A stretch of DNA of 64,000 nt. Origin: a virus. Its lineage: Duplodnaviria > Caudoviricetes. The notes under the pieces are model-generated. The model made no database searches. It was given only the letters and a program-made list of their open reading frames with translations, and had not been told where the DNA came from. The position numbers and the translations under genes were made by a program. Of the stretch, positions 13,640 through 49,795 are shown in pieces. Position 1 is the first letter of the stretch. Each line of letters starts with the position of its first letter. The stretch lies in IMG/VR virus record IMGVR_UViG_3300025087_000689, one strand, 5' to 3'.

Positions 13640-14164
13640 ATGGTTTCAGGGACAATGGCTTTAACAGAGGCAACCTTAAAAGGTGGCAGTGCTGGTATAA
13701 GAGCACAAAGAGGAGATGAAATTTGGGGAGCGAGCTGGGCTTTTGCTTCAGGTGGAGCACAAGGAGATATTTTAACACTATCAGATGTGTTAAATAATTT
13801 ATCAACGTCAGGTGCGTATGCTACTGATGCCGAATTACTGGCTGTGTCTGGTGCATTAAGAGCGGTCCTAGATGCGTCTGGGGCAAATCTTGCTTCTGCA
13901 TCAGGTGCAATTGTAACTAATATATCTGGACTCATAGTCAATGTATCTGGTACGATTGTGGCTAGTGGTCAGTATTTTAATCAACCTACAATAGCTTCGG
14001 GTGTGATGTATGGAAGAATAACACTGGATCCATCTGGAACAGTTACTATTGGCACGGCATCCGCTCCGCTAACATCCGGGTTTGCTAGTGTGGTATCGGC
14101 CAATGGAATAGTTTATCAGCTTAGAATTGGTAACGACGGATTAGTATCTGGCTTTATCGTATAA
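13640..14164 (+). CDS. Ser-Gly-rich putative virion protein
   Basis: GAGGAG SD; 13 SG dipeptides in 174 aa. Confidence 0.7.
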   Translation: MVSGTMALTEATLKGGSAGIRAQRGDEIWGASWAFASGGAQGDILTLSDVLNNLSTSGAYATDAELLAVSGALRAVLDASGANLASASGAIVTNISGLIVNVSGTIVASGQYFNQPTIASGVMYGRITLDPSGTVTIGTASAPLTSGFASVVSANGIVYQLRIGNDGLVSGFIV

Positions 14165-14171
14165 TCGTTGT

Positions 14172-14666
14172 TTGATATGTGCCTGCCCTGGTCGTTCTTT
14201 ATGTGCCAGACATGAAAAAGTATATGTTTTGGACGTGGAGAATGGTTGGGTCAGGAAAAAATCAGGTCTAAAGCGGGGAGTTCGCAGATATCATAAAACC
14301 GAGACCAAACTACTCGAAATTTTAAAAGAGATTTTTGGTCAAGAGAATGTGATCTCGAGCGTGCACCCGCTTTGGGCCCTTTCCGACAAGGGAGTTCTTC
14401 TTGAGTATGATGTCTGTGTGATGTCAAAACATCTATTAGTCGAGTATGACGGATTGCAGCACTTTGAGTTTTCAAACTTCTTTCATAAAACTCGTAGTGA
14501 ATTTGAAAGTCAAAAAACTAGAGACAGATTAAAGGATAGATTGGCTAAACAAAACGGATGGAAACTGCTCAGGATAAAATACAATGAAGATGTAACTTAT
14601 GGAAACATCTTTAAAAAACTATCAACAATGAGGTTAACATGCCCGAAAGAGAAGACAGAATACTAG
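14172..14666 (+). CDS. Vsr/DUF559-like (EDxHD-type) endonuclease
   Basis: LEYDV....LLVEYDGLQH...RD..K...A..NGW.LLRI.Y; start codon uncertain. Confidence 0.7.
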   Translation: MICACPGRSLCARHEKVYVLDVENGWVRKKSGLKRGVRRYHKTETKLLEILKEIFGQENVISSVHPLWALSDKGVLLEYDVCVMSKHLLVEYDGLQHFEFSNFFHKTRSEFESQKTRDRLKDRLAKQNGWKLLRIKYNEDVTYGNIFKKLSTMRLTCPKEKTEY

Positions 14667-15145: not shown

Positions 15146-15155
15146 GGAGCAATAA

Positions 15156-15545
15156 ATGCAAACATTAATAGCAACTGCGAGTGGTTGGACTTTAGTGCCA
15201 CCAAGCGGTCTTAGTATTACAGTTAAGAATTTACAATTAAGTACTTTAAGTACTTCGGGTAATATTTTTATATCAGGTAGTGCTAGTTCATATATAAATA
15301 CACTTTATTCAGCAGGATCTATTAACATTCCCATTGAATTAAGATTCGTCCAAGCTGAAAATGTCACAGTAATACCATCAAGTGGAGATCTTATTGTAAG
15401 TTATCTCTACGCTGGTGAACCAGAGGCTTATCTATATGCTAGGGCCGTCTCAGAATATTCGGCTCTATCTGGTGTGGCACCTCTTTGGAATAGTGTTGTC
15501 TTAAGTGGTTCTTACAACTACGGCAGTGGAAAGTTCGGGGGGTAA
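15156..15545 (+). CDS. Ser-Gly-rich small beta protein, putative virion protein
   Basis: AAGGAG SD; 8 SG in 129 aa. Confidence 0.65.
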   Translation: MQTLIATASGWTLVPPSGLSITVKNLQLSTLSTSGNIFISGSASSYINTLYSAGSINIPIELRFVQAENVTVIPSSGDLIVSYLYAGEPEAYLYARAVSEYSALSGVAPLWNSVVLSGSYNYGSGKFGG

Positions 15546-15559
15546 TTAAAGGATTATTA

Positions 15560-16198: not shown

Positions 16199-16209
16199 TA
16201 AGGAAAATA

Positions 16210-16707: not shown

Positions 16708-16715
16708 GAGAATTT

Positions 16716-18881: not shown

Positions 18882-18891
18882 TTTAAAGTAT

Positions 18892-18920
18892 TTGAATTCA
18901 AATACTTAAGAAAGTATAAT
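18892..18920 (+). promoter_or_regulatory. Promoter TTGAAT-17-TATAAT, probably giving a leaderless TerL mRNA
   Basis: ATG lies 6 nt after the -10 box; no SD. Confidence 0.7.
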
Positions 18921-18926
18921 ATAAGT

Positions 18927-33168: not shown

Positions 33169-33765
33169 ATGGCAAAACTATATATAGTTGATCGGTATCC
33201 TGCAGAATACGCGTCTGGTGTATATATTAATGACATGGTGTGGGCACAGTTTTCTGTGCCTATTTCATCTGGAACCGCTACATATTACAACTTCACAGTT
33301 AATGAGAAAAACACATACGATCCAGTAGATGGATCTGTAGAAGTTCGTGGTATTTCTGGTGGACTAAATAATGCTGTTATCGTCTTCATGACGACTAATG
33401 GTTTTAAAAGAAATACAGAATACGCTGTTTTGGCGTCTACAGGATTAAAAGCCAAAGATACTAATGATTATCTAATTGATGATAGCGTGTGGTATTTTAC
33501 CACTGGTACAGGAGTCTATTCTGGATTAATAGGTGGTGTTGACGCTATTGTTCCAAGTGGTATTACAGAAGATAGTACTTCTGGTGTCATTGGTGCTGAT
33601 CCCAGCGGAGCCGCACTTGAAGTAATTGAAACCATTCCAGAAGATTTTGAATCTAACGTTTCACTTTCTCTCCCCTATATTGGTATAAGATTCACTGGAG
33701 TAATTCCAAGTGGGGTTAATTTATACGACCATATTTCTTTAACATCCAAGAAAGTTTTAGGATAA
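33169..33765 (+). CDS. Ig-like (SbsA/Big_5-type) domain virion protein
   Basis: IVDRYPA..ASGV.IN.......F and V.F.....F...TEY.V...W.FTTG pattern. Confidence 0.6.
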   Translation: MAKLYIVDRYPAEYASGVYINDMVWAQFSVPISSGTATYYNFTVNEKNTYDPVDGSVEVRGISGGLNNAVIVFMTTNGFKRNTEYAVLASTGLKAKDTNDYLIDDSVWYFTTGTGVYSGLIGGVDAIVPSGITEDSTSGVIGADPSGAALEVIETIPEDFESNVSLSLPYIGIRFTGVIPSGVNLYDHISLTSKKVLG

Positions 33766-33766: not shown

Positions 33767-34804
33767 ATGGCTGTAACACTTACATTTACAAGACCTGTTA
33801 ATTATAACTTATCTTTCTACGAGGTAGGTCAAGCTAGTAGCGAAACGACAGCTTTAACAGTTGTTGCTTCAGGAACTGATATTGGTAGTTTTCCAAGTTG
33901 GATAACACAAGTTAGTTATTCTGGTGCTAATACGTTCTGGTATAGTGTTCGTTTTGGAACTGATGATGGTTCTTATACTGCTTGGTCTTCCAGAATGTAT
34001 GGTAGATATGGTGCTGGTGGTGGATATTTCTTAGTCCAACCATCCGGTTCAGATTGGGTTTATCTTGTACCTCCACAAATTTCTGGTGTTGTGCCCACTT
34101 GGTTAGAATATAATAGTGAATATACAGTTACAATAGATTGTTCTGGACTTTATGCATCCGGCACCAATTATATGCTATCTGATTATGAATTTACTTTTAC
34201 ATCTGAATATTGTCCTCTTTGGTCTACAATGGAATCTGTTAGATTAACAGTGGGACCTCTTATAGATAATATTCCTGATGATACTATTAATCGTATGATT
34301 CATAAAGCGTCTCATCAGGCTATTACAAGATTTCTTATTGGCACCAATGACTTCGGATGTAGTTATACAGATGTACCAGAACCGCTCTATCGATGGGTAA
34401 CATGTGCGGCGGGTACAATGGCTTTAAATGCCGCAATATCATCATCGACTGGATTTGGAAATACAAGTAAAAAACTTGGTCAGTTTGCAGTAACCTATGA
34501 TGCACTAGCCGGGACTAAACCAGCCGAAATTAGAAAGAACTTAAGTGATTGTATGGAAGAAGCTTCGATTTCTATTCAAGCTCTTCAAGGCACTCTTTCT
34601 ATGTATGCTGTAAAATCTCTAGAAAATTCTTACCTACGTCATCCAATGAGAGATCCTCAATGGGGTAGACATCCTCGCAAAGTTGATCAGAGTGTACAGG
34701 GTCCTTGGAGAGGTGCTACTAATGATATTCAAACTTATGAAGCCACGGATGTAATCACATCAGACGAGGTGACCGTACCTTCCGGTGCCATCATATTAAT
34801 TTAA
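33767..34804 (+). CDS. Head-tail adaptor or neck protein with N-terminal beta domain
   Basis: C-terminal half ...VRL..G..I..IPD..I...I..KKLG.F.V.Y resembles adaptor proteins; position. Confidence 0.5.
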   Translation: MAVTLTFTRPVNYNLSFYEVGQASSETTALTVVASGTDIGSFPSWITQVSYSGANTFWYSVRFGTDDGSYTAWSSRMYGRYGAGGGYFLVQPSGSDWVYLVPPQISGVVPTWLEYNSEYTVTIDCSGLYASGTNYMLSDYEFTFTSEYCPLWSTMESVRLTVGPLIDNIPDDTINRMIHKASHQAITRFLIGTNDFGCSYTDVPEPLYRWVTCAAGTMALNAAISSSTGFGNTSKKLGQFAVTYDALAGTKPAEIRKNLSDCMEEASISIQALQGTLSMYAVKSLENSYLRHPMRDPQWGRHPRKVDQSVQGPWRGATNDIQTYEATDVITSDEVTVPSGAIILI

Positions 34805-34814: not shown

Positions 34815-37800
34815 ATGGCCGCTGTTACCATAAACGTTGACACTAACATAGACGATATAATTGCAATGCAACATGTTACTGTTGCTAGTGGCGTAGCTAC
34901 ATCTCAATCTTCAGTTGATGGTATAACATGGGTTTCCAGAACTATGCCATCTTCTTCTACCTGGCAGAGTGTTGTGTTTGGAAGTGGTATGGCTGTCGCT
35001 GTTTCTAGTACTAACGGCACTGTTGCCGCTTCTTCTCCAGATGGTATAACATGGACGGCTAGAACTCTTCCTTCGACGAGCGTGTGGTATGATATTGCAT
35101 ATGGTAGTGGTTTATTCGTCGCTGTTTCTACAAATAATAGTAATAAAACAGCCTATTCTTCTGATGGTATAACGTGGACTTCTGGTAATATATCTTCAAC
35201 TGGTAACTGGCGGAGTGTAATTTATGGTAGTGGTCAGTTCATCGCATTATCTTATAATTCGAATATATTTGCTAGATCCGCTGATGGCATAACATGGACT
35301 TCCGGTAGTCTCCCCTCCACTGTTAATTGGAATGATGTTGCCTATGACTGGACTCTTGGAAGATATGTTGCGGTGGCATATGATTCGGATATAACTGCTT
35401 ATTCAGACGATGGTGTTAATTGGACCAGTGGTAATATACACAGTTCATCTAATTGGAATTGGGTTACTAGTAACAATCTTGGAAGATTCGTTGCTGTTTC
35501 AGCCGTAGCTGGAGTGGTCGGTGGTTATTCAAACGATGGTATAACTTGGTCTTCTGGAACGATGCCTGTCACAACAACTTGGCAAGCTGTTACATACGCA
35601 CCTCTTGGACCTAATGGTCCTCTTTGGACAGCTAATGGATTAACAACTTTTGCGGCGTCGTCAACAAATGGTATTAACTGGGTTCAGAGAGCCCAGATTA
35701 CAATGAGTTGTACTGCGTCTTGTTATGCTCCATTCTCTTGGAGATCCAATGACACTCTTACTATTGATAAACGTGCGATTGTAACTGTCAATACAGACCA
35801 AAAGAAATTCTGGTCTGGATCATTGACAGTTACAAACGGTCGATTAAAAGTAATTAATACATCTATTACAGACGCTATACGATTTATCATGGGTCGTACC
35901 ACTGGTATACTTGTACATAGTATTATTCCTACAAATGGACAAGGCATTATTGATATCTCTGGTAGTATGATTACTATTGGACAGAGTAGTGGAGTAGCCA
36001 ATCAAGTATTTACTGCACCATATACAGATTATATTCCTACAGTATGGGTAGAGACAGGTCCTGCTTCTGGTGTATATGAGATGTGGAATAACACACGAGC
36101 AGAGTATGGAAACACTCTGCCAGGTTTTGATAATGGTTTAAATGCTACGTGTAGTGGCAGGCGTGGCATGTTCTTTGAACAAGGAGTAAATACCAATTAC
36201 GATGAATCCTTTGTATTATTAAATAGTACCACGGTAGTTGGTTTACGAATTATTACTGTATCTTCAACGACTGGTATTATGACCGGTGCGTCGATATCAG
36301 GGACAAACATTCAAACCGGAACCGTTGTGGAAGCAATTTTAAGTGCTACGGAACTTGAAGTAAATCTTGCTCCTACTGGGTCAGCAACTACAACTACTGT
36401 TACTTTATTTAATCCTCTTAAATCGCAGTTAACTAATCAAATAACATTTGGTGATGGGACTTATGGAACTATACCTCCATCTGGTTCATATATTAAAATT
36501 CCAAATATCATGGTGACCTCAGAGACGGCCGCTAACGTTGGTAACGCTCAGTACGCAACAACTGGCTTATCGATTAATTTAAGTTTTGGTGGTTCGGCTT
36601 ATCTTCAGAATTGTCTCTTCGATGAATCCTATAATAATTTCACCCAAGGACAAAATCTAACTATTAAAAATGTCGGTATGGTCATAATGCCATTGTTGGT
36701 TGAGATTTATAATTTAATTATTGATGGTTTTGCGATAACGCAAGGTGGAACTTATCGGCGTTTTTATAGTACGTTTTGGTTTACAAGAGACAGTAGATCC
36801 AATATAGGTGGATTAGTTCTTTCTTACTGCAATAATGCCGTGATGAATGATCTTTATTTAAGTTCACAGAGTTTTCATGTAGCTTCACCGGCATTTCCAC
36901 TTAAATTAGATTTTTGCAAGGATGTCACTTTAACGAATTATCGTGCGGTAAATATTACGCCATTATATAACGCAATTAATTCGTGTGCACTATATCTCTA
37001 TAGTAGTAATAATTGCACTATTACAGGTATTGAAGCATACGGAATAGGTGCCGTATTCTTATCATTTTCCAGTAATAATACAATTAGTAATATTACGTGG
37101 GCTGAACACGTTCAGTTTAATAGTGCTGGATATACTATGACAGGAGATAGATTGGGATATGATCCAGTTACAGGAAGTGATTTAATTGAGGGTCAAAAAT
37201 ACTATATTAAATTACGAACTTATCATGATAGGAAAAGAGAAATATACTGGGATAGTAAGACTTACTCATTTACACCTTTTTTAGGTGCACAGTTATTCCC
37301 AGATTATTTTGCTTGTAACTGTACAGTATCACAAACTGTCGTATTAGGATGGACTAATAGATCACCTGTTTATTTATATGAAGTATTCAGAAGTACTGCA
37401 TTAGGATTTGGTACTAGAGATTTAACTACTCTCATGTACGCGAGTACAGTCGCAGCTACCGTGGCTTTTACGAATGGTCCTGTAACTCAGGCTATTCCAA
37501 CGGCAGTTACTGATACATGGACGTGGAATGCAGCTGGAAAAACATTAACAAGATCAGCCGGTACTGGAACATCATTTCTGACACTTGGCTTTATACTTGG
37601 TATGGTGGTGGATGTCACCGAAACAGCTAGTAATAACGGCACTTTTATTCTATCAGCGTGCACTGCTACTGTAATGACGTTTGCAAATGTTGGGCCTTAT
37701 ACCCAAACTATAGTAGCTGAAGCGGCTGCAGTCATAGGTAAAATTAATGGCCGTACACCAGCAAATGACACTACTTATTATTACGTCCTGCGAAAATGGG

Positions 37801-40019
37801 ACGATGCGGCAACTTCTAATGAAAGTGCGGAAACGGAAGTTACACCAACGGCTAATATCAGTTCTCAAAACCTTATAATACAGTCAGATGCATTTAATAC
37901 AACTTGGGTAGCTGCCAGAATTACAGTTACTGCAAATCAAACCTCTCCTTTTACAACTCCTTTAGAAGTACTTCCAAATACGGCAGCGACACAACTGGCT
38001 GATAAGTTAGCTGCAACTGGAGCCAGTGGACATATATCACAGGGATTTACCTCTGTTAGTGGAACTACATACACCTTCTCAGTATTTAACCGTTGCGATA
38101 ATATAGTTGGCACTCCAGTTGTATCAGGGTGGGTTGGACTAAGCGGTTCAGCAACAAATTACACTGTAACTCACTTCGTGGCTTCCGGTTCATGGCAGAG
38201 ATCATCAGTGACGTTTACAGCGGTTGATACCACGACGACAGCTTTTATAGGAGTTGATACAAACACACAATACATATACACATGTTCAGCAATGTTAAAT
38301 AGTGGCGTAGTAGCCGAACCACCAATCAAGACCACAACAGTGGCCGTGACAAACACTAATACAATTTCGCGAGATATATCTGCACTACAATCATGGTGTA
38401 GAAGTTACGGTAATGAAACTAGATTTTCTGGTCTTCAATATATTGTTGCACCTGCTAATAATACCGGTGATTTATTTACAGAAACATACCTAGGTACTTC
38501 TGGAACATTCGTCCCGTCGTTATTAAATAGAATTAGAATAATAGGTGATACTACGGCATGGTCATTTTCGTTAGTAATATCGATCAGTTATCAGTCAAAT
38601 GATAATATAATTAGTAACTTTACACAACTTGGTCGTGGGGCACCTTATGCCTTTTTATATTTTACACTTATGTCTAATAATAATATAGTGAGAAACATAA
38701 CTTTGGATTGTGGGTTTCGAGCACAGGGATCTGTGATCCAGTTTGCAACTGGATCATCTAATAATAGATGTCAGAATTTTGAATTCCGAGGGATTAAAAA
38801 TTATACTACATTCACCCCTTATCTATTTACAAATTTAGCATTTGATTCTTTTCTTGAAAATATTAGATGTGATGTTACGGATTTTTCTGTTCCCTTGTTA
38901 TTACCTAATAATAGTGTTTTTAAAGGTGTCGCTGGTGGAAATGCAACACCTGCCAATGGTGCCATTACCTGGGTTCATGGTTCGACTACGGATGGAATGC
39001 CAATAGCACCCGTCGCTGTATACGACACTAATTTCTTTGAGATGTATCATACCCCTACTTCCGGTGCGTTATATCTATTGTTTAATGATAGTATAAAAGA
39101 TACACCACCCTATACTATATTATCTGGCGTTCCTGTATTTGGTAATAACGGCAAATTATACTTTCAATCACCTGAAGATAGTATAGAATGGGAGTGGCCG
39201 CATAAAATTATTGGTGTTAGTGGTTTTGCAAATAGAGAACCTAAAATCAGCACAGTGGATCTTGGTACTTCAACGGATGTATTTGAAGGTTTATATGGTG
39301 AGTATTGCGTTAAAGCTGGAACATTTGGTGCTACTTATGGCAGTTATAAACAAATGACTGCGGCTAACCTATCATCTGAAACGATATCGGTTTCTGGTTT
39401 CTATATTAAAATTAAGTTAACAGCAAAACAGTTCATGAAATATGGAGCTCAAACTAATCCTTTTGTAATTGGGGAGTGGATAAAAGGAAATGTATCACAA
39501 GCCAGTGGTATGGTTACTAATGATTTTGATTTAGGATCAACTGGAACTGTTTGGGTATCTGGTGTTGTAGGAACATTTAATCCAACTGAAGCAATAGTTA
39601 AACATTCAACTGGAACTACAAGGGCAACGAACGTTGCAACTAATACATTATATGCTTTAGGTCCATCATATCTATCTTGCATTAATGGGTTGCAGATATA
39701 TACTCAGATAGACCAGACGGTTCACTATCCGTTAACTACTGTTAATGCAACCCTTACTATTACAGGTCTTCAAGCTGATACTGAAGTTAGAGTTTATCGA
39801 ACATCAGATGATGTTGAACTTGCCGGTTCAGAGAGTGTAATGACTGGTACATTCACATACGATTATGAATGGAATAGTACAGATGGAGATACTAGCGTTT
39901 ATATTAGAATCATGTCATTAACTTATAAATGGATGACATATACAGATCAATTACTTGGAGAAGATGGACTTGATATATTAGTCCAACAAGTTTATGATCG
40001 TAACTTCGAAAATCCGTAA
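34815..40019 (+). CDS. Giant adhesin-like virion appendage or fibre protein (Asp-box propeller plus beta-rich regions)
   Basis: 1734 aa, Thr/Ser/Gly-rich, seven S.DG.TW repeats, C-terminal TITGLQ.DTEVRVY module. Confidence 0.7.
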   Translation: MAAVTINVDTNIDDIIAMQHVTVASGVATSQSSVDGITWVSRTMPSSSTWQSVVFGSGMAVAVSSTNGTVAASSPDGITWTARTLPSTSVWYDIAYGSGLFVAVSTNNSNKTAYSSDGITWTSGNISSTGNWRSVIYGSGQFIALSYNSNIFARSADGITWTSGSLPSTVNWNDVAYDWTLGRYVAVAYDSDITAYSDDGVNWTSGNIHSSSNWNWVTSNNLGRFVAVSAVAGVVGGYSNDGITWSSGTMPVTTTWQAVTYAPLGPNGPLWTANGLTTFAASSTNGINWVQRAQITMSCTASCYAPFSWRSNDTLTIDKRAIVTVNTDQKKFWSGSLTVTNGRLKVINTSITDAIRFIMGRTTGILVHSIIPTNGQGIIDISGSMITIGQSSGVANQVFTAPYTDYIPTVWVETGPASGVYEMWNNTRAEYGNTLPGFDNGLNATCSGRRGMFFEQGVNTNYDESFVLLNSTTVVGLRIITVSSTTGIMTGASISGTNIQTGTVVEAILSATELEVNLAPTGSATTTTVTLFNPLKSQLTNQITFGDGTYGTIPPSGSYIKIPNIMVTSETAANVGNAQYATTGLSINLSFGGSAYLQNCLFDESYNNFTQGQNLTIKNVGMVIMPLLVEIYNLIIDGFAITQGGTYRRFYSTFWFTRDSRSNIGGLVLSYCNNAVMNDLYLSSQSFHVASPAFPLKLDFCKDVTLTNYRAVNITPLYNAINSCALYLYSSNNCTITGIEAYGIGAVFLSFSSNNTISNITWAEHVQFNSAGYTMTGDRLGYDPVTGSDLIEGQKYYIKLRTYHDRKREIYWDSKTYSFTPFLGAQLFPDYFACNCTVSQTVVLGWTNRSPVYLYEVFRSTALGFGTRDLTTLMYASTVAATVAFTNGPVTQAIPTAVTDTWTWNAAGKTLTRSAGTGTSFLTLGFILGMVVDVTETASNNGTFILSACTATVMTFANVGPYTQTIVAEAAAVIGKINGRTPANDTTYYYVLRKWDDAATSNESAETEVTPTANISSQNLIIQSDAFNTTWVAARITVTANQTSPFTTPLEVLPNTAATQLADKLAATGASGHISQGFTSVSGTTYTFSVFNRCDNIVGTPVVSGWVGLSGSATNYTVTHFVASGSWQRSSVTFTAVDTTTTAFIGVDTNTQYIYTCSAMLNSGVVAEPPIKTTTVAVTNTNTISRDISALQSWCRSYGNETRFSGLQYIVAPANNTGDLFTETYLGTSGTFVPSLLNRIRIIGDTTAWSFSLVISISYQSNDNIISNFTQLGRGAPYAFLYFTLMSNNNIVRNITLDCGFRAQGSVIQFATGSSNNRCQNFEFRGIKNYTTFTPYLFTNLAFDSFLENIRCDVTDFSVPLLLPNNSVFKGVAGGNATPANGAITWVHGSTTDGMPIAPVAVYDTNFFEMYHTPTSGALYLLFNDSIKDTPPYTILSGVPVFGNNGKLYFQSPEDSIEWEWPHKIIGVSGFANREPKISTVDLGTSTDVFEGLYGEYCVKAGTFGATYGSYKQMTAANLSSETISVSGFYIKIKLTAKQFMKYGAQTNPFVIGEWIKGNVSQASGMVTNDFDLGSTGTVWVSGVVGTFNPTEAIVKHSTGTTRATNVATNTLYALGPSYLSCINGLQIYTQIDQTVHYPLTTVNATLTITGLQADTEVRVYRTSDDVELAGSESVMTGTFTYDYEWNSTDGDTSVYIRIMSLTYKWMTYTDQLLGEDGLDILVQQVYDRNFENP
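34905..35700 (+). repeat. Seven roughly 41-codon Asp-box (BNR-like) coding repeats
   Basis: GATGGTATAAC(A/G/T)TGG-like units near 34917, 35040, 35163, 35283, 35409, 35535, 35667. Confidence 0.85.
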
Positions 40020-40248: not shown

Positions 40249-41574
40249 ATGGCTATTTTAACTGATCCCGATGACCTTGTTGACGCAGCGTCAATAATTA
40301 TCGACACAGCTGCAAAAACCGTACAATTGGTAGTTAATGGACTTTTAACTACTGAAGGTGTTACGATTAAATGTGTTTATTCAAAACTTAAAGAATTATG
40401 GCGTACCAATAACACATACATTAAATTCTTATTTCCGATGGGACCTATTACAGATGAACAGTTTGAAATGATTAATGGTTGGAATTGGTTAGACGCTACA
40501 ACCAGACTTTTATTGCGAACTGGTGGTTGGGCTGTGAAAGATACTTTAGGTGTATCGCAAGAAGAATGGGCGGGAGTTATAACACTGGGTTCTCTCGATG
40601 CAGCAGAACAAGTCTACTATCAACAGGAAGATGATGGCACAACTACAAACTTTAATTTGTTAGGTACTGTCAATCAAGCTGTTCAAGTATATGATGCTGG
40701 AGTATATGATTATCGAGATCATTTGAATCTCTATTGTCGAACATATGCTAGAACTTATGACATGGCAACTCTCAGTGATATTGGGGTAACAACACTATCA
40801 TATCAAGCGTATCGTTTTCCATTAACAACTTCTGTTGATACTAAAATAACACATAACGATGTTACTGTATCTGGAACTGCTCCTTATTCTGGTATGAGTA
40901 TTTGGTGGGGAAATCACACAGTTAATATTGGCGGAACTTTAGTTTCTTTCTCAATCACTATAGAAGGTCAAGGTGGGACAGCGGAAGAAATATACGAATT
41001 TTCACAATATAAATTAAGATGGGATTCAAATATAGATGCTAGTGGTGGAACACATATAGGAAAAATCACAAGTCCATTCCTAAGATTTACTGGAGACACT
41101 CTTTATACATTAGCTGTTGATGCCAGTGGTACATGTATAAGTGGTTATTTAAGTGCTGATACGAATAGATTAGTATTTACTGATGATTCTGGAGTCGAAT
41201 GGACTTTTCCTTATACCGCTGTCTTAGGTGTTACTTTTGGAGAAAATTTAACTAATGATATTTCTGGTACTTATTGGATCTATTTTACATCTGTTCCAAG
41301 TGGTCAGTACGGGACGTCAAGTGGAGTAATAGTTAATGATGCAAGTAACCTTCCCATGAGTGGAATAGTTAATGGTGCAACCTCATTATCCTTAAGTTTC
41401 GCTTACGATTCAAATAACCAAGGTGGAAGAACTCCATCTGGTAATGCTCCTATTACAGCAGTAGCAATCGGATTGAGTGGATCTCAGTTTGTTAAAGCTT
41501 CTGGTGTTATAACAAGAAGTACAGGAAATAGTATATCTCTAATTGCACCTCTTGAAAGAAATTATAGTAATTAA
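40249..41574 (+). CDS. Virion structural protein, Ser-Gly-rich C-terminal half
   Basis: 441-aa ORF; AAGGA SD; 13 SG. Confidence 0.7.
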   Translation: MAILTDPDDLVDAASIIIDTAAKTVQLVVNGLLTTEGVTIKCVYSKLKELWRTNNTYIKFLFPMGPITDEQFEMINGWNWLDATTRLLLRTGGWAVKDTLGVSQEEWAGVITLGSLDAAEQVYYQQEDDGTTTNFNLLGTVNQAVQVYDAGVYDYRDHLNLYCRTYARTYDMATLSDIGVTTLSYQAYRFPLTTSVDTKITHNDVTVSGTAPYSGMSIWWGNHTVNIGGTLVSFSITIEGQGGTAEEIYEFSQYKLRWDSNIDASGGTHIGKITSPFLRFTGDTLYTLAVDASGTCISGYLSADTNRLVFTDDSGVEWTFPYTAVLGVTFGENLTNDISGTYWIYFTSVPSGQYGTSSGVIVNDASNLPMSGIVNGATSLSLSFAYDSNNQGGRTPSGNAPITAVAIGLSGSQFVKASGVITRSTGNSISLIAPLERNYSN

Positions 41575-41582: not shown

Positions 41583-42203
41583 ATGGTTTGTAAATATTGT
41601 AATATTAGTTTTACACCATATCACAAAATGCAAATTACTTGTGGTTCTAAAGAATGTTTAAATAAATATCATAAAGAATATCGCAAAACACATACAAACC
41701 AAATACGAGAATATAAGAATAAAAATAAGTGTTATCTGAATGAATACAATAAAAAATATTATAAGAAAAATAGAATACATATTAATGAATCTGACAAAGA
41801 ATATAATATTCAACATAGACAACAAATTAAAGAACGCAAGAAAGAATATTATATTAAATATAAAGATAAGATTAATAAATATGGAAAAGAATATCAAAAG
41901 AATAGAAAACAAACCGACCCTATATTTGTTATGCGATTAAGAATAAGAGATAGATTTAGAAAAGTTATTAAAAAGAATAAATATACTGAATTGTATGGTA
42001 TTAGGATTCAAGATATAATTAACCATATTGGACCTTGTCCAGGTAATCTATCTGAGTATCATATAGATCATATTAAACCACTGAGTTCATTTGATTTAAC
42101 TAAAGAGATTGAGATTCAAAAAGCCTTTGCACCTGAAAATCATCAATGGTTAACTAAAGAAGATAACTTACGGAAAGGTGATAGATATGGGTTACGTATT
42201 TGA
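41583..42203 (+). CDS. HNH homing endonuclease
   Basis: N-terminal CxxC...C, Lys/Tyr-rich linker, YHIDHIKPL...N...L...DN..KG. Confidence 0.85.
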   Translation: MVCKYCNISFTPYHKMQITCGSKECLNKYHKEYRKTHTNQIREYKNKNKCYLNEYNKKYYKKNRIHINESDKEYNIQHRQQIKERKKEYYIKYKDKINKYGKEYQKNRKQTDPIFVMRLRIRDRFRKVIKKNKYTELYGIRIQDIINHIGPCPGNLSEYHIDHIKPLSSFDLTKEIEIQKAFAPENHQWLTKEDNLRKGDRYGLRI

Positions 42204-43533
42204 TGGTAACACTTCTATTATTACTTTAACTCCAGGTACAGCTGTTCTGGATTTACGAAATTTGTATACAAATTGGAAAGAATGGATAATCGCTTCTGGT
42301 TCTATGTATACACAGGCGTTCTCTACTATTGGTGGAGAACCAATTGATGTAGTCGAAGGTATTTATATTACCAGTTATTTCTTTTTAGAAAATGGTTGGA
42401 AAATTCGACCACAAGAAGCAAGTCATAAGTTAAAAGTAACCAATGGTGTATTAGTTGTAGCTGATGGTTCTGATCCGTTCTTACAAACACTGGGGGTTTT
42501 TAATGTTCTTGTCCAGTACTCACAACCTATTAAGTCTGAGACTATAGCAACAGGTGGGGGAGGCGGTGGAATAGTTACTTCAATTCAAGAAGCAGCGTTA
42601 ACTCAGATTGTTGATGCTGGTAACTTGGCTGGTTGGAGTGGCGGAGCATCGTCCATAGTAACTGTATCTGGTATAACTCCACAAGCCCTATCGCAGATAG
42701 TGGCTTCTGGTAATGCCGCTGGTTGGGCGTCAGGAGGATCTACTTCCGGCGATTTCATTAATACTATAGATGCCATTTCGGGTATAGTTCAGAATATCTT
42801 AGGTACAACCAGTCAGTTTAGATTTACTGATAATGATGTATGGTGTACTCTTAATGGTGAAAAAGTAGTCGTATTCCGCAACGAGGATAAGACAGGGTAT
42901 ACGATTTTAACAAGTAATCTGGAAGCATTGCTTACTTCTGGTGGTTCACCAACTGCTGAAGCATTGGCTCAGAATACTGGAGGAAGTAGAATGTTTAATA
43001 GAAGAACAGGTAGTAAATTATTCTCTGGTAGATCATCTGGTAGTTCAGGTGCCTCTCAAGGTGAAATAGATCTTCGAGTTGAATTTGCTGAAACTATGTT
43101 TGGCCGAAATGGTAAACCTCAACGTGGTCATTGGGTTGTATATCGTAGATTTGATCTTACAACTAAGAGTGCGAACTTTGATGAAGTCTATAATACAGGT
43201 GTTAATGGACCAGCGTATGCTTTTGCTGATGAACTCGTTATTACAAGACAAGATCCTGTATTCTCTCCAGAGATGGCTGAATCTGCAATGCCAGCTGGAT
43301 TACTAAAAGGTGGGCAGTCCATCTTCTACTTTGAATATGACTTCAGACCAACTCAGAATGATCAGATATATGAATTAGATTGGGATAATCATATGATTAA
43401 ACCACCGACAAGTATATTGAATGGTGTATACACTAAGAGATATAATATTAAAGAGGTCTTCCCCTATAGATTGGACGGAGGAAGAGTAGAATATTATATG
43501 GCTTTTTGCAATACTGACTTAATTAACTATTAA
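42187..43533 (+). CDS. Two-part virion protein; C-terminal part resembles head-closure/neck proteins
   Basis: AAAGGTG SD before ATG 42187; GHWVVYRRFD...YFEY...GR.EYY C-terminal domain; internal GGAGG-7-ATG at 42991. Confidence 0.65.
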   Translation: MGYVFDGNTSIITLTPGTAVLDLRNLYTNWKEWIIASGSMYTQAFSTIGGEPIDVVEGIYITSYFFLENGWKIRPQEASHKLKVTNGVLVVADGSDPFLQTLGVFNVLVQYSQPIKSETIATGGGGGGIVTSIQEAALTQIVDAGNLAGWSGGASSIVTVSGITPQALSQIVASGNAAGWASGGSTSGDFINTIDAISGIVQNILGTTSQFRFTDNDVWCTLNGEKVVVFRNEDKTGYTILTSNLEALLTSGGSPTAEALAQNTGGSRMFNRRTGSKLFSGRSSGSSGASQGEIDLRVEFAETMFGRNGKPQRGHWVVYRRFDLTTKSANFDEVYNTGVNGPAYAFADELVITRQDPVFSPEMAESAMPAGLLKGGQSIFYFEYDFRPTQNDQIYELDWDNHMIKPPTSILNGVYTKRYNIKEVFPYRLDGGRVEYYMAFCNTDLINY

Positions 43534-43681: not shown

Positions 43682-45403
43682 ATGAATGATAATATTATAA
43701 ATCTTTATAGTCCAGATGGTTCTGGAGCTTCAACGGCTGATTTGTTTGCTTTATCTGGTACTCTGCAAACATCTATTTATAACACATCTGGAACCCTAGT
43801 CACTTTAATAGCTAATACTTCTGGAACACTTGATACTGCTATTTATAATGCTTCGGGGTTATTTCTACGGCAAGATGGTACTACTCCTTTAACCGGAGAT
43901 TGGAATGCAGGTGGATATAATATAACTAACAGTGGTAATCTTAGTGTTCGTGATTATATTAGGGTTGGCAATATTACAGACGACGTAGCAAAGGAATGTA
44001 ATGTACTTGGACAAAACTTCGACTCTGGAACAGAGACCGAAGGTTTTAGCATGATTCATGGATGGAATGCTGCATCCAACGCAAACCTATTAGATATTGG
44101 TGGTGGTTCTGCATCATATAATGCAGTGTCATATGTCACCTTTTATACAGCGGCAAATGCTTCAACACGTATTGGAACAGCACGAGGAAGATTTGATGCT
44201 AATGGTTTATTAGATGTTTACTATGGACTAAATGTGCAAGGCGAAGTGACTGCTAGTGGTCTAACGTGTCCACAATATAATTCAGATCTTAATACATTTA
44301 GTGGTCATGTTGGGGTCGGTAGTACTGCCCTAACTAATGCGTCTTTACTCGTCAAAAATATTAGTGTAGTACAGGGTAGTGAAAACTTTTATGGTATATA
44401 TAATTATCATGATAGAGGATCAGGTACTGGTACTTACGCTAACGACATATTAAATCACTATAATTTTTTAAACCTAAGTCAAGTCAATGGAGAGTATGGT
44501 ACAGTTTATGGTATATATAATGAAACTCAATTAGCAGCAGGTACAGTTGGTAGAGTTGGTTTTAATCAAAATTTTTATGGTCAATATACTCTCATGGATA
44601 TGAATGGTGGTACCGTTTGTGGTGTTACTATGGGTACTTATATTAATATGGATATAGAACCCGCAGTATTTTGTTCTGGTCAAATACTAGCTTTACAAGC
44701 TAGAGTAGGACCTGATGGAGATGTGCTTGGTAACGTAACCGGTATTAGAGGTACTGTAGATCAAGCAGCTGGTAAAACTATCACTGGTGATGCATATGCG
44801 ATCCACGCTGATATGGATATAGATGGTACTGTTACTGGTAATACTGTTATGGTTTATATAGAAGAACATTCAAATGTTGACTATGCTATATATCACACCG
44901 GTACAGCACCCAGTGTATTAGGTGGAGATATTAGTGTTAGTGGTAGTCTTCAACTTGGTATTTATACAATAGAAAGAACTTTTAGTGTTGCACTTAGTGA
45001 TTCAGTGGCCGCTACTATATGCACTATAACAACTCCTGATAACCCGTCATACGATGGTGGAGGATATTCAGTATTTATAGATGGACAGGTATTTCATGGG
45101 GGTAATAGTTCAGCAACAAATGCCGCTAAGTGGTTTCAGGTAAAATATTCACATATAAATGACACTACTGGAAACACAGGAGATTCAACACCTGAGATTT
45201 CTTACTCCGCTACATCAGCGGCGGATGCTTCGGCTACGCGTGATATTGGTGTAATTAGTTTTGCTGCGGGTGCAGCTGGTGGTAATTATGTGAGAACTAT
45301 GGATATTACAGCTGATTTTACAGGAACCACAATAATGACAGGTCGAGTAGTAGCACACGTTAAAGTTGTTTACTATGGTTATAGTACTATAACTGTAACG
45401 TAG
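43682..45403 (+). CDS. Tail fibre or appendage-like protein
   Basis: FLRQDGTTPLTGDW.AGG..ITN fibre motif; NTSGTL repeats; Gly-rich beta repeats. Confidence 0.65.
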   Translation: MNDNIINLYSPDGSGASTADLFALSGTLQTSIYNTSGTLVTLIANTSGTLDTAIYNASGLFLRQDGTTPLTGDWNAGGYNITNSGNLSVRDYIRVGNITDDVAKECNVLGQNFDSGTETEGFSMIHGWNAASNANLLDIGGGSASYNAVSYVTFYTAANASTRIGTARGRFDANGLLDVYYGLNVQGEVTASGLTCPQYNSDLNTFSGHVGVGSTALTNASLLVKNISVVQGSENFYGIYNYHDRGSGTGTYANDILNHYNFLNLSQVNGEYGTVYGIYNETQLAAGTVGRVGFNQNFYGQYTLMDMNGGTVCGVTMGTYINMDIEPAVFCSGQILALQARVGPDGDVLGNVTGIRGTVDQAAGKTITGDAYAIHADMDIDGTVTGNTVMVYIEEHSNVDYAIYHTGTAPSVLGGDISVSGSLQLGIYTIERTFSVALSDSVAATICTITTPDNPSYDGGGYSVFIDGQVFHGGNSSATNAAKWFQVKYSHINDTTGNTGDSTPEISYSATSAADASATRDIGVISFAAGAAGGNYVRTMDITADFTGTTIMTGRVVAHVKVVYYGYSTITVT

Positions 45404-45443
45404 GATGTATTATGACTAGGGGTGGTTATATAAAGGATAAACT

Positions 45444-45603
45444 ATGCTTATCTATAAAAACAACAAATCTAATAAACAATAAGATTTATATCGGTAAAGA
45501 TTCCAATGATAATCCAAATTACGGTAAACGATATAAACATACAAAGGAAACCAAGTTAAAAATATCTAACTCATTGAAAGGTAGATCTAAATGCCTAGTT
45601 TAG
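45444..45603 (+). pseudogene. GIY-YIG remnant (+1 frameshift, internal deletion joined to a NUMOD3-like segment)
   Basis: AAGGA-ATG CTT ATC TAT AAA (extra A) ACA ACA AAT CTA..IYIGKDSNDNPNY fused to KHTKETKLKISNSLKG. Confidence 0.8.
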
Positions 45604-46004: not shown

Positions 46005-46008
46005 CATA

Positions 46009-46037
46009 TTGAATTTAATGAAGAAATAAGGTATAAT
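46009..46037 (+). promoter_or_regulatory. Promoter TTGAAT-17-TATAAT for the tail operon
   Basis: Consensus spacing directly upstream of the 46053 gene. Confidence 0.7.
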
Positions 46038-46052
46038 ATTACAGGGTGGTGC

Positions 46053-46907: not shown

Positions 46908-46924
46908 AATTAAGGAGGTTCTAG

Positions 46925-49795
46925 ATGGCTCTTCCTGGAGTAACATCAGACATTAGAGATTATGGTCTGCAGGTGTCACCTGAGCCCCAAGTAAGAAATG
47001 ATAGTATTCTAATCATCGGCACAGCCGCTGACGGCCCGATGTACGAACCAATCCCACTTTCGAGCAAAGACGTTGCTCAAAAGGTTTTCGGTTCTTTTAA
47101 CGCCGGTACTCTTGTTCGTGGAGTGTTCGAAGCAATCGACGCTACCCTAGAGGGAACCCCAGACGTTAGAGGTATGCGAATTGGTGATGGAAAGAAAGCG
47201 AAACTCGAAATCGCGGAAAGACTATCAACTTCAGCTTACTGGGACGCGGTAACAACTGGAACTACATCTCTTAAATTAGAAGCTGTTTATGCTGGTTCTA
47301 AGTATAACGCTGTCTCTGTCTTCATAGATGAAGAAAAGATGATCAACGTTTATAACCCAAAAACCGGTCTTTATAGCCGTTTTAGTTATGACGACACAAA
47401 TCCTTATAATTCATTAGTTGATGCTCGTAACGTTCGTGAACTTGCAGAAGTGATCAATAGTGATCCTAATATAAGTTCTGTCGTGGTAGCATCCACTTCT
47501 GGAGTACAGGCTACTTTCGAAGTTCTAGTAAATTCAGCGAGTAACGGCGTTTCAAACGCTGGTGGTACTAAAGCACAGTTTGATCTAAAAAAGATGCTTT
47601 CTGGTTATGCTATTGCCACCCCTGGTGACGTTCTTCCTACTGGTTATATCTTCGAAGCAGAAGTATCGAATACAGCTGGCAATCTTATCGATAATCTAGA
47701 GGAGGTTTTCTCTATTTCTGTATCGACTCCAACACTCTTCGAAGTGAAAGGAACAACGACCGCAGAATTACTATTGACTCCTTTTGATGGTAAGGGTGAT
47801 TCCCGTTTTGATACAATACAAGCTATGGAAGATTACGACGATGATAACTTCTACTTCGTAACACCTTCTGGTAGTAATGTAGTATCTGAATATATGAATC
47901 TGTTAGATAGAGAAGTATTGCCGGATGTTACAACAGCTGTCAGTATTACTGGTTGGGTTGGTGAATTTGCTGCAAAAGGTTTTCAACTTCCACCTGATGA
48001 CAGTCAAGAAACACTTGTTAGTGGACACGCCAATTATAGCCAGACTGTCACTACAGCTTATGGAACAGGTAATACAGCTGATGTAAGTGGTAATCATGCA
48101 TGTATGGCTCTTGCCGCTGCTAGAGCTGTAAGTGGTTATTATGTTCCTAGAGGATACGTCTATACGGATGTATCAGGAATACCTGCTACAATCGCAGATT
48201 ATGTTAGAATAACGGCCAGTGGTATTGAGTCTTATCTTGATTATCCTGGCAAGGTTATTATAGCTGTATCAAGTACTGGTGGCACATCTGATTCTGAGTG
48301 GACTACACTTCTTTATCATACTGTCTCTGGTATTTATTGCAGTGGTTTTGTATATGATACTGTAACAGGTACTGGCACATTAAGTCTTGCAATCGGTAAT
48401 CAAGCTCTTAATTATTCTGGAAGTAACAGTCTAATTAGTGCTGGTCTTATTACTGCTTCTGGTATGGTTGTGGCTGATAAGTATCTACGTATTAGTTGTA
48501 ATACGATTAAAGGTTTCTTAAGTGAAGCTGAAACATTACCTAACCTACAAGCTGCTAATTCGGATTGGACAACTTACTTTGTAAGAGGGCAACAACTTTT
48601 ATTCTCGGATACAGTTCCTTTTGATATTATTGTCAATTATGGCACTAAAGTCAATTACGAACCAAATTCAGATATTGTTGTTACAGATCCTACACTCGGT
48701 ATTCTGAAAATCGTTAGTGATACTCAACCTGGACCTGGTGGAGAAGTTTTAGATGGTACAAAGAAATCAGTTATTGGTTTTAAGTACAAATATCTGCCTC
48801 AGTTTCCTGCAATCACTACAGCTGCTCAGTCTCTTGAAGGTGGAACAGATGGAACAAAGTTGAATAATGCTAAGTTGTATGATGAATTCGCAACAACTTA
48901 TGACGCTCTTGAGAACTATGAAGCTCGGGTTGTGGTACCTATGGGTGCTTTTATCGATTCTGAGAAAGATAGTTATAATTCCATCACAGGTTTACCTGAG
49001 AGAGTTAATGCCCAGTTCCAAGTACAACTGAAAAATTACTTGAAGAAAGTATCAGTTAATACTAGAGAAACTATCGGTGTTATGGGTTCTGTCCCTGCTC
49101 CAGGAACAACACTACTTGAAGTTAAACGGTTTGTAGATCGTCTATCGGTTCAGGATCTTAATGATCCAAATCGCGGTGCGAATATTATGCCTCTTCTGGA
49201 TGCGTTTCATATTAACGTATGTACGTTTGAACCTGTATTTGATAACCTTGGTGGGTTACCTTATACAGCTAATGGACAAGCTTCGTATGCTGGTATGATT
49301 TCAAGTCTTGATGCTCATCAGTCACCAACAAACAAGTCTATACCAAATGCTCTACGTATGCGGTATGATCTGTCTAATGCCCAACTGGAAGCTCTCCAGG
49401 GTATGCGTATGGTTGCTATGAGAAAGAAACCTGGGCGTAATCCTGTTGTATGTGATGCTATGACAGCTGCAGCGGCTGGTTCTGATTTTGTTCGTCTAAC
49501 TACTGTTCGTATTACTTTCGAGGCGATGGATGTCGTTCGTAAAGTATGTGATCCGTTTATTGGACAACCTAATACAGCGGCTAAGAGAAATGCGATGGAA
49601 GCTGCGATCACGAAGGGATTGTCTGCATTGGTTGATCTTGGTGCACTAAGAAAGTATGCGTTCACTGTATCTTCATCTGTTACACAACAGGTGCTTGGTA
49701 TTGTCGATATTGAACTGGTATTAGTACCTGTGTTCGAGATTAGAACAATTAGAACAGTCGTTAAACTTCGGACTGAAATTCCGTCAAACGGATAA
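46925..49795 (+). CDS. Tail sheath protein with large central insertion
   Basis: LPGV N-terminus, IIGTA.DGP..EP, L.GG.DG, SPTNK.IP, D.MT, RLTTVRI, FIG.PN, P.FE..I C-terminus. Confidence 0.92.
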   Translation: MALPGVTSDIRDYGLQVSPEPQVRNDSILIIGTAADGPMYEPIPLSSKDVAQKVFGSFNAGTLVRGVFEAIDATLEGTPDVRGMRIGDGKKAKLEIAERLSTSAYWDAVTTGTTSLKLEAVYAGSKYNAVSVFIDEEKMINVYNPKTGLYSRFSYDDTNPYNSLVDARNVRELAEVINSDPNISSVVVASTSGVQATFEVLVNSASNGVSNAGGTKAQFDLKKMLSGYAIATPGDVLPTGYIFEAEVSNTAGNLIDNLEEVFSISVSTPTLFEVKGTTTAELLLTPFDGKGDSRFDTIQAMEDYDDDNFYFVTPSGSNVVSEYMNLLDREVLPDVTTAVSITGWVGEFAAKGFQLPPDDSQETLVSGHANYSQTVTTAYGTGNTADVSGNHACMALAAARAVSGYYVPRGYVYTDVSGIPATIADYVRITASGIESYLDYPGKVIIAVSSTGGTSDSEWTTLLYHTVSGIYCSGFVYDTVTGTGTLSLAIGNQALNYSGSNSLISAGLITASGMVVADKYLRISCNTIKGFLSEAETLPNLQAANSDWTTYFVRGQQLLFSDTVPFDIIVNYGTKVNYEPNSDIVVTDPTLGILKIVSDTQPGPGGEVLDGTKKSVIGFKYKYLPQFPAITTAAQSLEGGTDGTKLNNAKLYDEFATTYDALENYEARVVVPMGAFIDSEKDSYNSITGLPERVNAQFQVQLKNYLKKVSVNTRETIGVMGSVPAPGTTLLEVKRFVDRLSVQDLNDPNRGANIMPLLDAFHINVCTFEPVFDNLGGLPYTANGQASYAGMISSLDAHQSPTNKSIPNALRMRYDLSNAQLEALQGMRMVAMRKKPGRNPVVCDAMTAAAAGSDFVRLTTVRITFEAMDVVRKVCDPFIGQPNTAAKRNAMEAAITKGLSALVDLGALRKYAFTVSSSVTQQVLGIVDIELVLVPVFEIRTIRTVVKLRTEIPSNG

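What the first reader, a model, noticed from the sequence alone, without database searches (positions are those of the whole stretch)
13640..49795. Directional Ser-Gly motif enrichment restricted to putative outer virion proteins: candidate modification sequon
Seen (manual counts, SG vs GS): 13640 ORF 13 vs 1; 33169 ORF 8 vs 1; 40249 ORF 13 vs 2, all SG in the C-terminal half; 15156 ORF 8 vs 4; 43682 ORF 12 SG; 33767 ORF 7 SG, six in the N-terminal domain; sheath 12 SG, all between about aa 190 and 515 and none in the conserved termini. TerL (1070 aa) has only about 2. The SG>GS asymmetry is not explained by Ser/Gly composition. Established: Ser-Gly is the eukaryotic xylosylation sequon, and virion glycosylation is known in some actinobacteriophages. 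Inference: a virion-wide O-glycosylation (or other PTM) signal on exposed loops that shields the particle or mediates adhesion.
Basis: partly seen in the sequence, partly recalled or inferred. Interest (0 to 1): 0.8.

Follow-up and report, generated by a model that had tools for sequence, protein, structure and literature searches.

The report
Ser-Gly turn motif on outer virion proteins
The outward-facing particle proteins of this uncultured 221-kb groundwater phage carry almost three times more Ser-Gly pairs than chance allows, placed at tight turns between beta-strands. The phage also encodes a large sugar-building and sulfation gene cluster, so these serines could carry a sugar coat, but no data here show that they do.

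Summary
Across all 27 ORFs in 13640-49795, SG = 149 against GS = 75 and 74 expected. The ten enriched ORFs give a pooled z of 10.8 even against 30-residue block shuffles. The excess occurs only in the reading frame, uses both Ser codon families, and is specific to SG: NG, DG and TG are not enriched. It continues downstream into the baseplate and fibre proteins. T4 and unrelated jumbo phages lack it. Low-GC relatives with 37-83% identical sheaths share it, often at the same positions.

SG sits at strand-turn junctions in a hydrophobic context, phi-x-[V/A/P]-S-G-[V/T]-phi. This is unlike the acidic eukaryotic xylosylation sequon.

The genome does carry a roughly 20-kb glycan and PAPS/sulfotransferase operon. 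However, no glycosyltransferase tracks the motif. GT9 is missing from two SG-rich complete relatives, and the one conserved GT4-like gene also occurs in a relative with weak enrichment.

Verdict: this is a real motif under selection and specific to one phage lineage. A purely structural turn element (about 0.45) and a glycosylation acceptor (about 0.35) both remain open.

This scan has already noted the same motif on the adjacent window of this genome (e1-5402254) and similar motifs on other phage DNA.

The parts
13640..14164 (+). 174-aa ORF with SG 13 / GS 1 (3.0 expected). SG recurs every 6-14 residues in hydrophobic stretches such as ASGAIVTNISGLIVNVSGTIVASG, which looks fibre- or solenoid-like. 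Its role in the virion is unproven.
   Evidence: block-shuffle z = 6.7. No Pfam or PHROG hit. The Atlas gave only weak leads.
15156..15545 (+). 129-aa ORF with SG 8 / GS 4 (2.2 expected). Role unknown.
   Evidence: z = 4.5. No family hit.
30027..31172 (+). 381-aa head-module ORF just upstream of the major capsid protein, weakly enriched (SG 6 / GS 3, 2.5 expected). Its orthologues in G004-G006 have SG 6-9 / GS 2-4.
33169..33765 (+). 198-aa protein with a bacterial Ig-like (Big_5) domain, next to the capsid gene and probably a head decoration protein. SG 8 / GS 1. Orthologues at about 30% identity keep 6-9 SG against 1-2 GS, although most positions differ.
   Evidence: (PF13205, 35 bits).
33767..34804 (+). 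345-aa ORF with SG 7 / GS 3. Six of the SG lie at aa 35-131.
34815..40019 (+). 1734-aa ORF with SG 29 / GS 18 (14.3 expected). The SG sites cluster at aa 25-556 and 1071-1582, with none in between.
   Evidence: z = 3.9.
40249..41574 (+). 441-aa ORF with SG 13 / GS 2, all in the C-terminal half. In 40-51% identical homologues from other phages most of these sites read TG, DG, NG, AG or have no Gly.
   Evidence: alignment A1.
42178..43533 (+). 451-aa virion structural protein with SG 11 / GS 7. The SG sites lie in the lineage-specific N-terminal and middle part. The conserved C-terminal domain (aa 316-446) has none.
   Evidence: (phrog_38102).
43682..45403 (+). 573-aa fibre-like protein with SG 12 / GS 6. 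Four 11-residue repeats of the form SGTLxTxIxNT lie at aa 25-60.
46925..49795 (+). Contractile tail sheath, 956 aa. The conserved N- and C-terminal parts have no SG.
   Evidence: (phrog_16991 E = 3e-75, aa 657-950).
47492..48469 (+). Sheath insertion, aa 190-515. It holds all 12 SG (3.7 expected, GS 2). Across 22 homologues at 37-83% identity the insertion keeps 7-14 SG. S468-G469 is invariant, and sites 192, 432, 315 and 403 are SG in 16-19 of the 22.
   Evidence: In the AF2 model, SG 192 and 468 lie in loops immediately before strands.

Best explanation
Ser-Gly is a lineage-specific tight-turn building block of this phage clade's beta-rich, outward-facing virion modules. These include the sheath insertion domain, the Ig-like head protein, beta-helix and propeller-like baseplate proteins, and fibres.

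The motif reads phi-x-[V/A/P]-S-G-[V/T]-phi. Gly would supply the backbone conformation needed to reverse or kink the chain between two strands. Ser would be a small polar residue at the start of the turn. Selection acts on the protein and keeps both particular sites and the overall SG density. On this reading no modification is needed.

Shown here:
- The bias is at the protein level, directional, and survives local-composition shuffles.
- The sites lie at strand-turn junctions.
- The motif is conserved across the clade.

Inferred: the roles of Gly and Ser, and the claim that the structural role is sufficient.
For: - Context: hydrophobic or beta-branched residues are enriched at -3, -1, +2 and +3, and charged residues are depleted 3- to 10-fold.
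- AF2 model of the 674-aa tailspike-like protein (ORF 80929). Its N-terminal 300 aa have pLDDT 84-95, are all-beta, and give Foldseek hits to PL6 lyase and phage tailspikes. Most of the 22 SG in that N-terminal domain sit in two- to four-residue turns or at strand ends. Five lie inside long DSSP strands and two flank a helix.
- Sheath SG 192 and 468 directly precede strands.
- In the 17-member family of that protein (28-56% identity), SG is the most conserved dipeptide. Nine columns are at least 80% conserved, and the next best dipeptide has two. 22 of 39 Gly-majority columns are SG.
- Gly is at least as conserved as Ser (0.82 against 0.78). Asn, which is compatible with turns, is a common replacement for both.
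- No glycosyltransferase tracks the motif among relatives.
Against: - Turn physics is universal, yet T4 baseplate, fibre, sheath and Hoc proteins show no excess: SG 82, GS 80, 74 expected. Large S/G-rich proteins of unrelated jumbo phages G002 and G003 show none either.
- The classical turn pairs NG, DG and PG are not enriched here.
- The excess spans at least 19 proteins with no detectable paralogy and several folds. It spares this phage's own tube, hub, baseplate-J, MCP and portal proteins.
- Orthologues at 25-30% identity keep the SG density while most positions differ.
- Ser in SG is replaced by Thr rather than Ala more often than other serines are: 34:12 against 84:77, p = 0.011.
- At the clade's conserved sheath SG sites, the outgroup sheaths (G008, G010) show other residues, although the alignment there is weak.
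Confidence: 0.45

Rival explanations
1. The exposed Ser of the SG turn is an acceptor for O-glycosylation by the phage's own cytoplasmic glycosyltransferases. The enzyme would recognise a strand-turn-strand shape rather than a linear acidic sequon. The result would be a virion sugar coat, which in this phage would be built from rare amino sugars and sulfated through phage-made PAPS.
For: - The motif is Ser-specific, directional and confined to outward-facing proteins and domains across unrelated folds.
- SG density is conserved while positions turn over.
- Substitutions show a Thr-over-Ala bias.
- The genome holds a GT4-like gene, a GT9+GT2 gene, three further GT2 genes (one only weakly matched), a C-methyltransferase, FdtA, an epimerase, a PglD-like acetyltransferase, two DegT, a sulfotransferase (28 bits against a cut-off of 22), CysD (459 bits), CysN/C (834 bits) and TauE.
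- No flippase, polymerase or ligase Pfam tags appear among the operon genes. That fits sequential cytoplasmic transfer onto a final acceptor.
- All three complete SG-rich relatives carry a glycan cluster that shares only the GT4-like gene and otherwise has variable content.
- There is a precedent for Ser hyperglycosylation of a beta-helix by recognition of a structural motif: TibC/AAH (PMC4358343, and PMC5000012 citing Charbonneau 2012).
Against: - There is no chemical evidence.
- GT9 is absent from SG-rich G004 and G006.
- The only conserved GT4-like gene is also present in G008. There only two baseplate proteins are SG-enriched and the sheath is not.
- That gene sits beside the primase-helicase. 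Its one solved relative, B736L, is a generic GT4 hit that phage DNA glycosyltransferases also match, so it could act on DNA.
- The operon lies 12 kb from the last structural gene.
- Many SG sites are invariant turns, which structure alone would explain.
- TG is not enriched.
Confidence: 0.35
2. SG marks some other function shared by exposed modules. Candidates are a different Ser modification (phosphorylation, acylation, or a host enzyme), recognition by an assembly chaperone, or short protease-resistant loops favoured in long-lived extracellular particles.
For: The same distribution arguments apply as for the glycosylation reading. No specific enzyme is required to co-vary.
Against: No candidate kinase, acyltransferase or chaperone was identified. 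Protease or deamidation avoidance would predict depletion of NG and DG, which is not seen (NG 0.82x, DG 1.11x).
Confidence: 0.1
3. The enrichment is an artefact of Ser/Gly-rich composition, of low-complexity segments, or of a DNA-level word.
For: The enriched proteins are richer in Ser (9.7%) and Gly (8.7%) than the rest.
Against: - GS is exactly at expectation (106 against 103.8) while SG is 293.
- Block shuffles keep z = 10.8.
- The excess is in-frame only and uses both Ser codon families.
- No internal repeats or paralogy were found by BLASTP.
Confidence: 0.02

Closest known systems
Bacterial autotransporter heptosyltransferases (TibC/AAH) acting on the TibA and AIDA-I beta-helices (PMC4358343; structural-motif recognition as cited in PMC5000012)
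   Same: In that system many Ser residues are modified in the cytoplasm, in short loops between strands of a beta-helix, and recognition is by shape rather than by linear sequence. Here SG sits at such turns in a tailspike-like beta-helix, and the genome has a GT9 (heptosyltransferase-family) domain.
   Different: The GT9 domain matches LPS heptosyltransferase models only weakly, and no solved structure (TibC included) was matched at E <= 0.01. It is not adjacent to a substrate gene. GT9 is absent from two SG-rich complete relatives. No modification has been shown.
Virion O-glycosylation of mycobacteriophages by phage-encoded glycosyltransferases (Freeman et al. 2023, cited as ref. 80 in PMC12582341; the paper itself is not held)
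   Same: Phage-encoded glycosyltransferases decorate virion proteins.
   Different: From my own knowledge, glycans there sit on Ser/Thr-rich C-terminal stretches of the capsid and tail-tube subunits. Here the capsid and tube-like proteins are not enriched, and the motif is a dispersed dipeptide on peripheral proteins. The host, habitat (groundwater) and phage type (221-kb myophage) also differ.
Autonomous virion glycosylation of giant viruses (chloroviruses, mimiviruses; PMC9614988, PMC4691112)
   Same: These viruses carry multi-gene clusters with several GTs plus rare amino-sugar synthesis (aminotransferase, acetyltransferase, methyltransferase) and act without host secretory machinery. The only solved relative of the clade-conserved GT4-like protein is chlorovirus B736L.
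   Different: Those are eukaryotic viruses with N-linked or fibril glycans. B736L's own acceptor is unknown (PMC9614988), and DNA glycosyltransferases also match it (PMC6024577).
Eukaryotic xylosyltransferase Ser-Gly sequon for glycosaminoglycan initiation (own knowledge)
   Same: It shares the Ser-Gly dipeptide. A PAPS-dependent sulfation pathway is present in the same genome.
   Different: The eukaryotic sequon is flanked by acidic residues. Here acidic residues are depleted and the flanks are hydrophobic. No GT14-type enzyme was tagged in the 142 kb examined.
Residue ladders at the turns of right-handed beta-helices (Asn ladder and Ser stack of pectate lyases; own knowledge)
   Same: These are conserved small polar residues recurring at equivalent turn positions of successive rungs. 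This fits the invariant SG sites of the ORF 80929 family.
   Different: A ladder is a feature of one fold. Here the same dipeptide is enriched in Ig-like, sheath-insertion, propeller-like and fibre modules as well.

Membership tests
Eukaryotic-type xylosylation (GAG-initiation) sequon | Ser-Gly flanked by acidic residues | tested here: not met
   D and E are depleted at -1 (0.24x, 0.30x), +2 (0.48x, 0x) and +3 (0.42x, 0.30x). The flanks are V/A/P/I and V/T/I/Y/L.
Eukaryotic-type xylosylation (GAG-initiation) sequon | A GT14-type xylosyltransferase encoded by or available to the system | tested here: not met
   Pfam tags and scans of the operon show GT1/4, GT9 and GT2 only. Only 142 of 221 kb were examined.
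BAHT-type Ser hyperglycosylation (TibC/AAH) | The acceptor serines lie in short loops between strands of a beta-helix | tested here: met
   The AF2 secondary structure of the ORF 80929 protein places most SG at turns or strand ends (some lie inside long DSSP strands). The fold matches PL6 lyase and tailspike beta-helices. Side-chain exposure could not be measured.
BAHT-type Ser hyperglycosylation (TibC/AAH) | A dedicated GT9-like heptosyltransferase with the TibC architecture (N-terminal barrel, iron finger) | tested here: inconclusive
   The GT9 domain scores 31.8 bits (cut-off 22), but only aa 240-299 match. NCBIfam hits are to LPS heptosyltransferases, far below their cut-offs. No PDB sequence hit was found.
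BAHT-type Ser hyperglycosylation (TibC/AAH) | The enzyme co-occurs with its substrate across relatives | tested here: not met
   GT9 was found in G005 but not in SG-rich complete G004 and G006.
Phage virion glycosylation (mycobacteriophage type) | Phage-encoded glycosyltransferases | tested here: met
   At least five GT domains lie in one operon. A GT4-like homologue is present in G004, G005, G006 and G008.
Phage virion glycosylation (mycobacteriophage type) | A glycan chemically attached to virion proteins | not testable with these tools
   This needs mass spectrometry or glycan staining of particles or of co-expressed proteins.
Contractile tail sheath (ORF 46925) | A conserved C-terminal sheath core | tested here: met
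   phrog_16991 E = 3e-75 over aa 657-950, plus four further sheath PHROGs.

The most novel reading that the evidence does not exclude
A clade of uncultured groundwater jumbo myophages may write a shape-defined Ser-Gly turn sequon across every outward-facing virion module. Each phage would then decorate those serines in the cytoplasm with its own variable glycan. In this phage the glycan would be a sulfated rare-sugar glycan made with phage-encoded PAPS synthesis. That would amount to a bacterial-virus counterpart of a proteoglycan coat.
Probability: 0.3. Interest if true: 0.85.

Novelty: new variant of a known kind. Interest (0 to 1): 0.55.

Why it matters
If the serines are modified, virion glycosylation would extend from a few actinobacteriophages to large environmental myophages. 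It would also provide a simple sequence signature (directional SG excess on peripheral proteins) for finding glycosylated virions in metagenomes. It would give a function to the large glycan and sulfation clusters that jumbo phages carry.

If the motif is purely structural, it is still a striking lineage-specific rule of protein construction: 27% of all glycines in these proteins follow a serine. Such a rule could help to recognise exposed modules and to model them.

Either way, the motif cleanly separates peripheral from core virion proteins in a phage whose structural genes have almost no family annotation.

Tried and rejected
- DNA-word explanation: rejected. The excess is in frame 0 only and uses both Ser codon families.
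- Composition or local low complexity: rejected.
- General turn preference (NG, DG, PG, TG): not enriched.
- Paralogy or internal repeats among SG-rich proteins: none found by BLASTP.
- A general habit of phage fibres: rejected by T4 and by G002/G003.
- G001-G003, found through ORF 40249, share only a few genes with this phage. G001's SG excess has a different T-x-S-G context, so they were used only as outgroups.
- IMG/VR scans found nothing with the sheath as a single query or with the ORF 80929 family alignment A2. Alignment A3 was too divergent to scan with.
- No whole genome is held for the window. The downstream 79 kb was walked with ten exact-protein look-ups. The upstream ~75 kb was not examined.
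- GT9 as the universal enzyme: rejected.
- B736L similarity as evidence for a protein acceptor: rejected as generic.
- Atlas search for ORF 13640 gave no usable lead.
- A clade-specific 330-aa gene looks like a PD-(D/E)XK nuclease, not a transferase.
- Sequencing-run search: no RNA holder listed.
- The Freeman 2023 paper is not held.
- No complex prediction was attempted.
Full report
**What the window is.** The window belongs to a roughly 221-kb contig assembled repeatedly from groundwater and soil metagenomes. It encodes a contractile-tailed jumbo phage. Assigned genes:
- TerL, 18927-22139, distantly like 0305phi8-36-type terminases and interrupted
- portal, 25563
- protease/scaffold-like protein, 28579
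- major capsid protein, 31187
- sheath, 46925
- tube-like proteins, 49807 and 50535

Most other structural ORFs have no Pfam or PHROG family.

**The observation.**
- Against whole-protein shuffles, five ORFs reach z = 4.4-6.9 and five more reach z = 2.4-3.7.
- Against shuffles confined to 30-residue blocks, the pooled ten ORFs give 119 SG against 50.6, z = 10.8.
- Without choosing ORFs, the 27 plus-strand ORFs of 13640-49795 give SG 149, GS 75 and 74 expected.
- SG is the top dipeptide by a wide margin, while GS, NG, DG, TG and AG are unremarkable.
- SG-coding hexamers are in excess only in the reading frame, and TCT, AGT, TCA and TCC all contribute. The bias is therefore on the protein.
- In the sheath, all 12 SG lie in the aa 190-515 insertion (3.7 expected, GS 2). 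None lie in the conserved termini.

**Beyond the window.** I walked 79 kb downstream by exact-protein look-ups and stitched the pieces together.
- The excess is stronger in the proteins after the baseplate-J homologue. SG/GS are 16/3, 30/6, 25/8, 17/9, 16/8, 23/8, 21/6 and 13/3, with z up to 9.
- Over 19 enriched proteins, SG = 293 against 103.8 expected and 106 GS. 27% of all glycines follow a serine, against 6% in the other proteins.
- Core and packaging proteins (SG 57, GS 61, 67 expected) show no excess. Replication and glycan enzymes (SG 26, GS 44, 35 expected) show none either.
- The enriched proteins show no mutual similarity by BLASTP.

**Context and structure.** The consensus is phi-x-[V/A/P]-S-G-[V/T]-phi, and charged residues are nearly excluded next to the pair.

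ORF 80929 encodes a 674-aa protein. Its AF2 model has a confident all-beta N-terminal domain with Foldseek matches to PL6 alginate lyase and phage tailspikes (right-handed beta-helix). The remainder is propeller-like. Most SG fall in two- to four-residue turns or at strand ends.

The sheath model is only moderate (mean pLDDT 64). It places SG 192 and 468 immediately before strands.

**Conservation.**
- In the ORF 80929 family (17 sequences, 28-56% identity), every member has 18-30 SG (z = 6-10). SG is the most conserved dipeptide: nine columns are at least 80% conserved, and no other dipeptide exceeds two.
- In 22 sheaths (37-83% identity), the insertion always holds 7-14 SG and S468-G469 is invariant.
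- Three complete relatives were examined: G004, G005 and G006 (213-230 kb, sheath about 40% identical, syntenic structural modules). All show SG of about 405 against about 285 expected, and the same orthologous proteins are enriched.
- In four-way alignments of orthologues at 25-45% identity, the enriched proteins keep their SG:GS ratio but most sites are private to one genome. MCP, baseplate J and another baseplate protein stay unenriched in all four.
- Ser in SG is replaced by Thr over Ala more often than other serines are, p = 0.011. Asn is also a frequent replacement, and Gly is as conserved as Ser.

**Controls.** T4 baseplate, fibre, sheath, Hoc and capsid proteins give SG 82, GS 80 and 74 expected. 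Unrelated jumbo phages G002 and G003 show little or no directional excess. G001 has an SG excess, but in a T-x-S-G fibre-repeat context. A higher-GC branch of the same sheath family (G008, G010) lacks the excess in the sheath and in most proteins. G008 keeps it in two baseplate proteins only.

**Glycan genes.** About 56 kb past the window end lies an operon containing:
- a GT4-like protein (854 aa, with an intein)
- a GT9+GT2 protein
- three further GT2 proteins, one only weakly matched
- a sugar C-methyltransferase (with an intein)
- FdtA (split by a homing endonuclease)
- an epimerase/dehydratase
- a PglD-like acetyltransferase
- two DegT aminotransferases
- a methyltransferase
- a sulfotransferase
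- CysD, CysN/C and TauE

No flippase, polymerase or ligase tags appear among these genes.

G004-G006 each have a cluster at the equivalent place, but only the GT4-like gene is shared. The rest differs; for example, G005 has GT9, DegT, a B12-radical-SAM enzyme and a weak GT8. GT9 is absent from G004 and G006. The GT4-like gene is also present in SG-poor G008. Its only solved relative, chlorovirus B736L, has an unknown acceptor and is equally matched by phage DNA glycosyltransferases.

**Reading.** The motif is real, selected and specific to outward-facing modules of one phage clade.

Two readings survive. The first is a purely structural turn element. It is supported by the location, the hydrophobic context, invariant sites and Gly conservation. 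It does not explain why universal turn physics yields SG only here, only in peripheral proteins, across folds, and with Ser rather than Asn, Asp or Pro.

The second is an acceptor for phage-encoded O-glycosylation recognised as a strand-turn-strand shape, as in TibC/AAH. This would explain the distribution and would give the glycan operon a target. However, it lacks any chemistry and any enzyme that co-varies with the motif. I put the two at about 0.45 and 0.35.

The eukaryotic xylosylation analogy fails on context.

An agent working on the adjacent window of this genome reached a similar view (e1-5402254). That is not independent evidence.

Noticed in passing
window 18927-22139 (TerL) and 25563-28556 (portal); also L034:10001-12565, L035:6355-8622 and L033:10620-14246: The genome is unusually rich in inteins. 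TerL (1070 aa) aligns to other terminases in two pieces, and aa 593-852 match a DNA-polymerase region of a Staphylococcus phage. The portal (997 aa) has inserts hitting thymidylate-synthase and PhoH PHROGs. The GT4-like, C-methyltransferase and primase-helicase genes carry intein or HINT Pfam tags.
   Followed up: partly
window 41583-42203 and about 45411-45602; L035:8622-10049: Homing-endonuclease-like genes sit inside the structural module: a 206-aa endonuclease VII-like ORF and a 63-aa NUMOD3 ORF. A NUMOD3 gene also splits the FdtA sugar isomerase into two ORFs.
   Followed up: no
window 49807-50487, 50535-51929 and 52122-53621: Of the three consecutive ORFs after the sheath, the first two share a domain matching phrog_9206, which is annotated 'major head protein'. 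By position they look like tail-tube paralogues. The third was not scanned.
   Followed up: no
window 43754-43861: Four exact-period 11-residue repeats of the form SGTLxTxIxNT lie at the N-terminus of the 573-aa fibre-like protein.
   Followed up: no
L035:14149-19095 (about 72-77 kb beyond the window end): A phage-encoded PAPS pathway (CysD at 459 bits, bifunctional CysN/C at 834 bits) sits with a sulfotransferase and a TauE-family transporter. These genes are absent from relatives G004-G006, G008 and G010.
   Followed up: partly
protein P0001: An identical protein is filed in NCBI under a 'Patescibacteria group bacterium' MAG. This is probably a mis-binned phage contig. The runs that hold the phage are groundwater and soil metagenomes.
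   Followed up: no
G004:C1:82792-112000, G005:C1:52954-68000 and G006:C1:77500-96000: The glycan clusters of the three complete relatives share only the GT4-like gene and two or three flanking unknowns. The rest is swapped wholesale, as in O-antigen-type diversification.
   Followed up: partly
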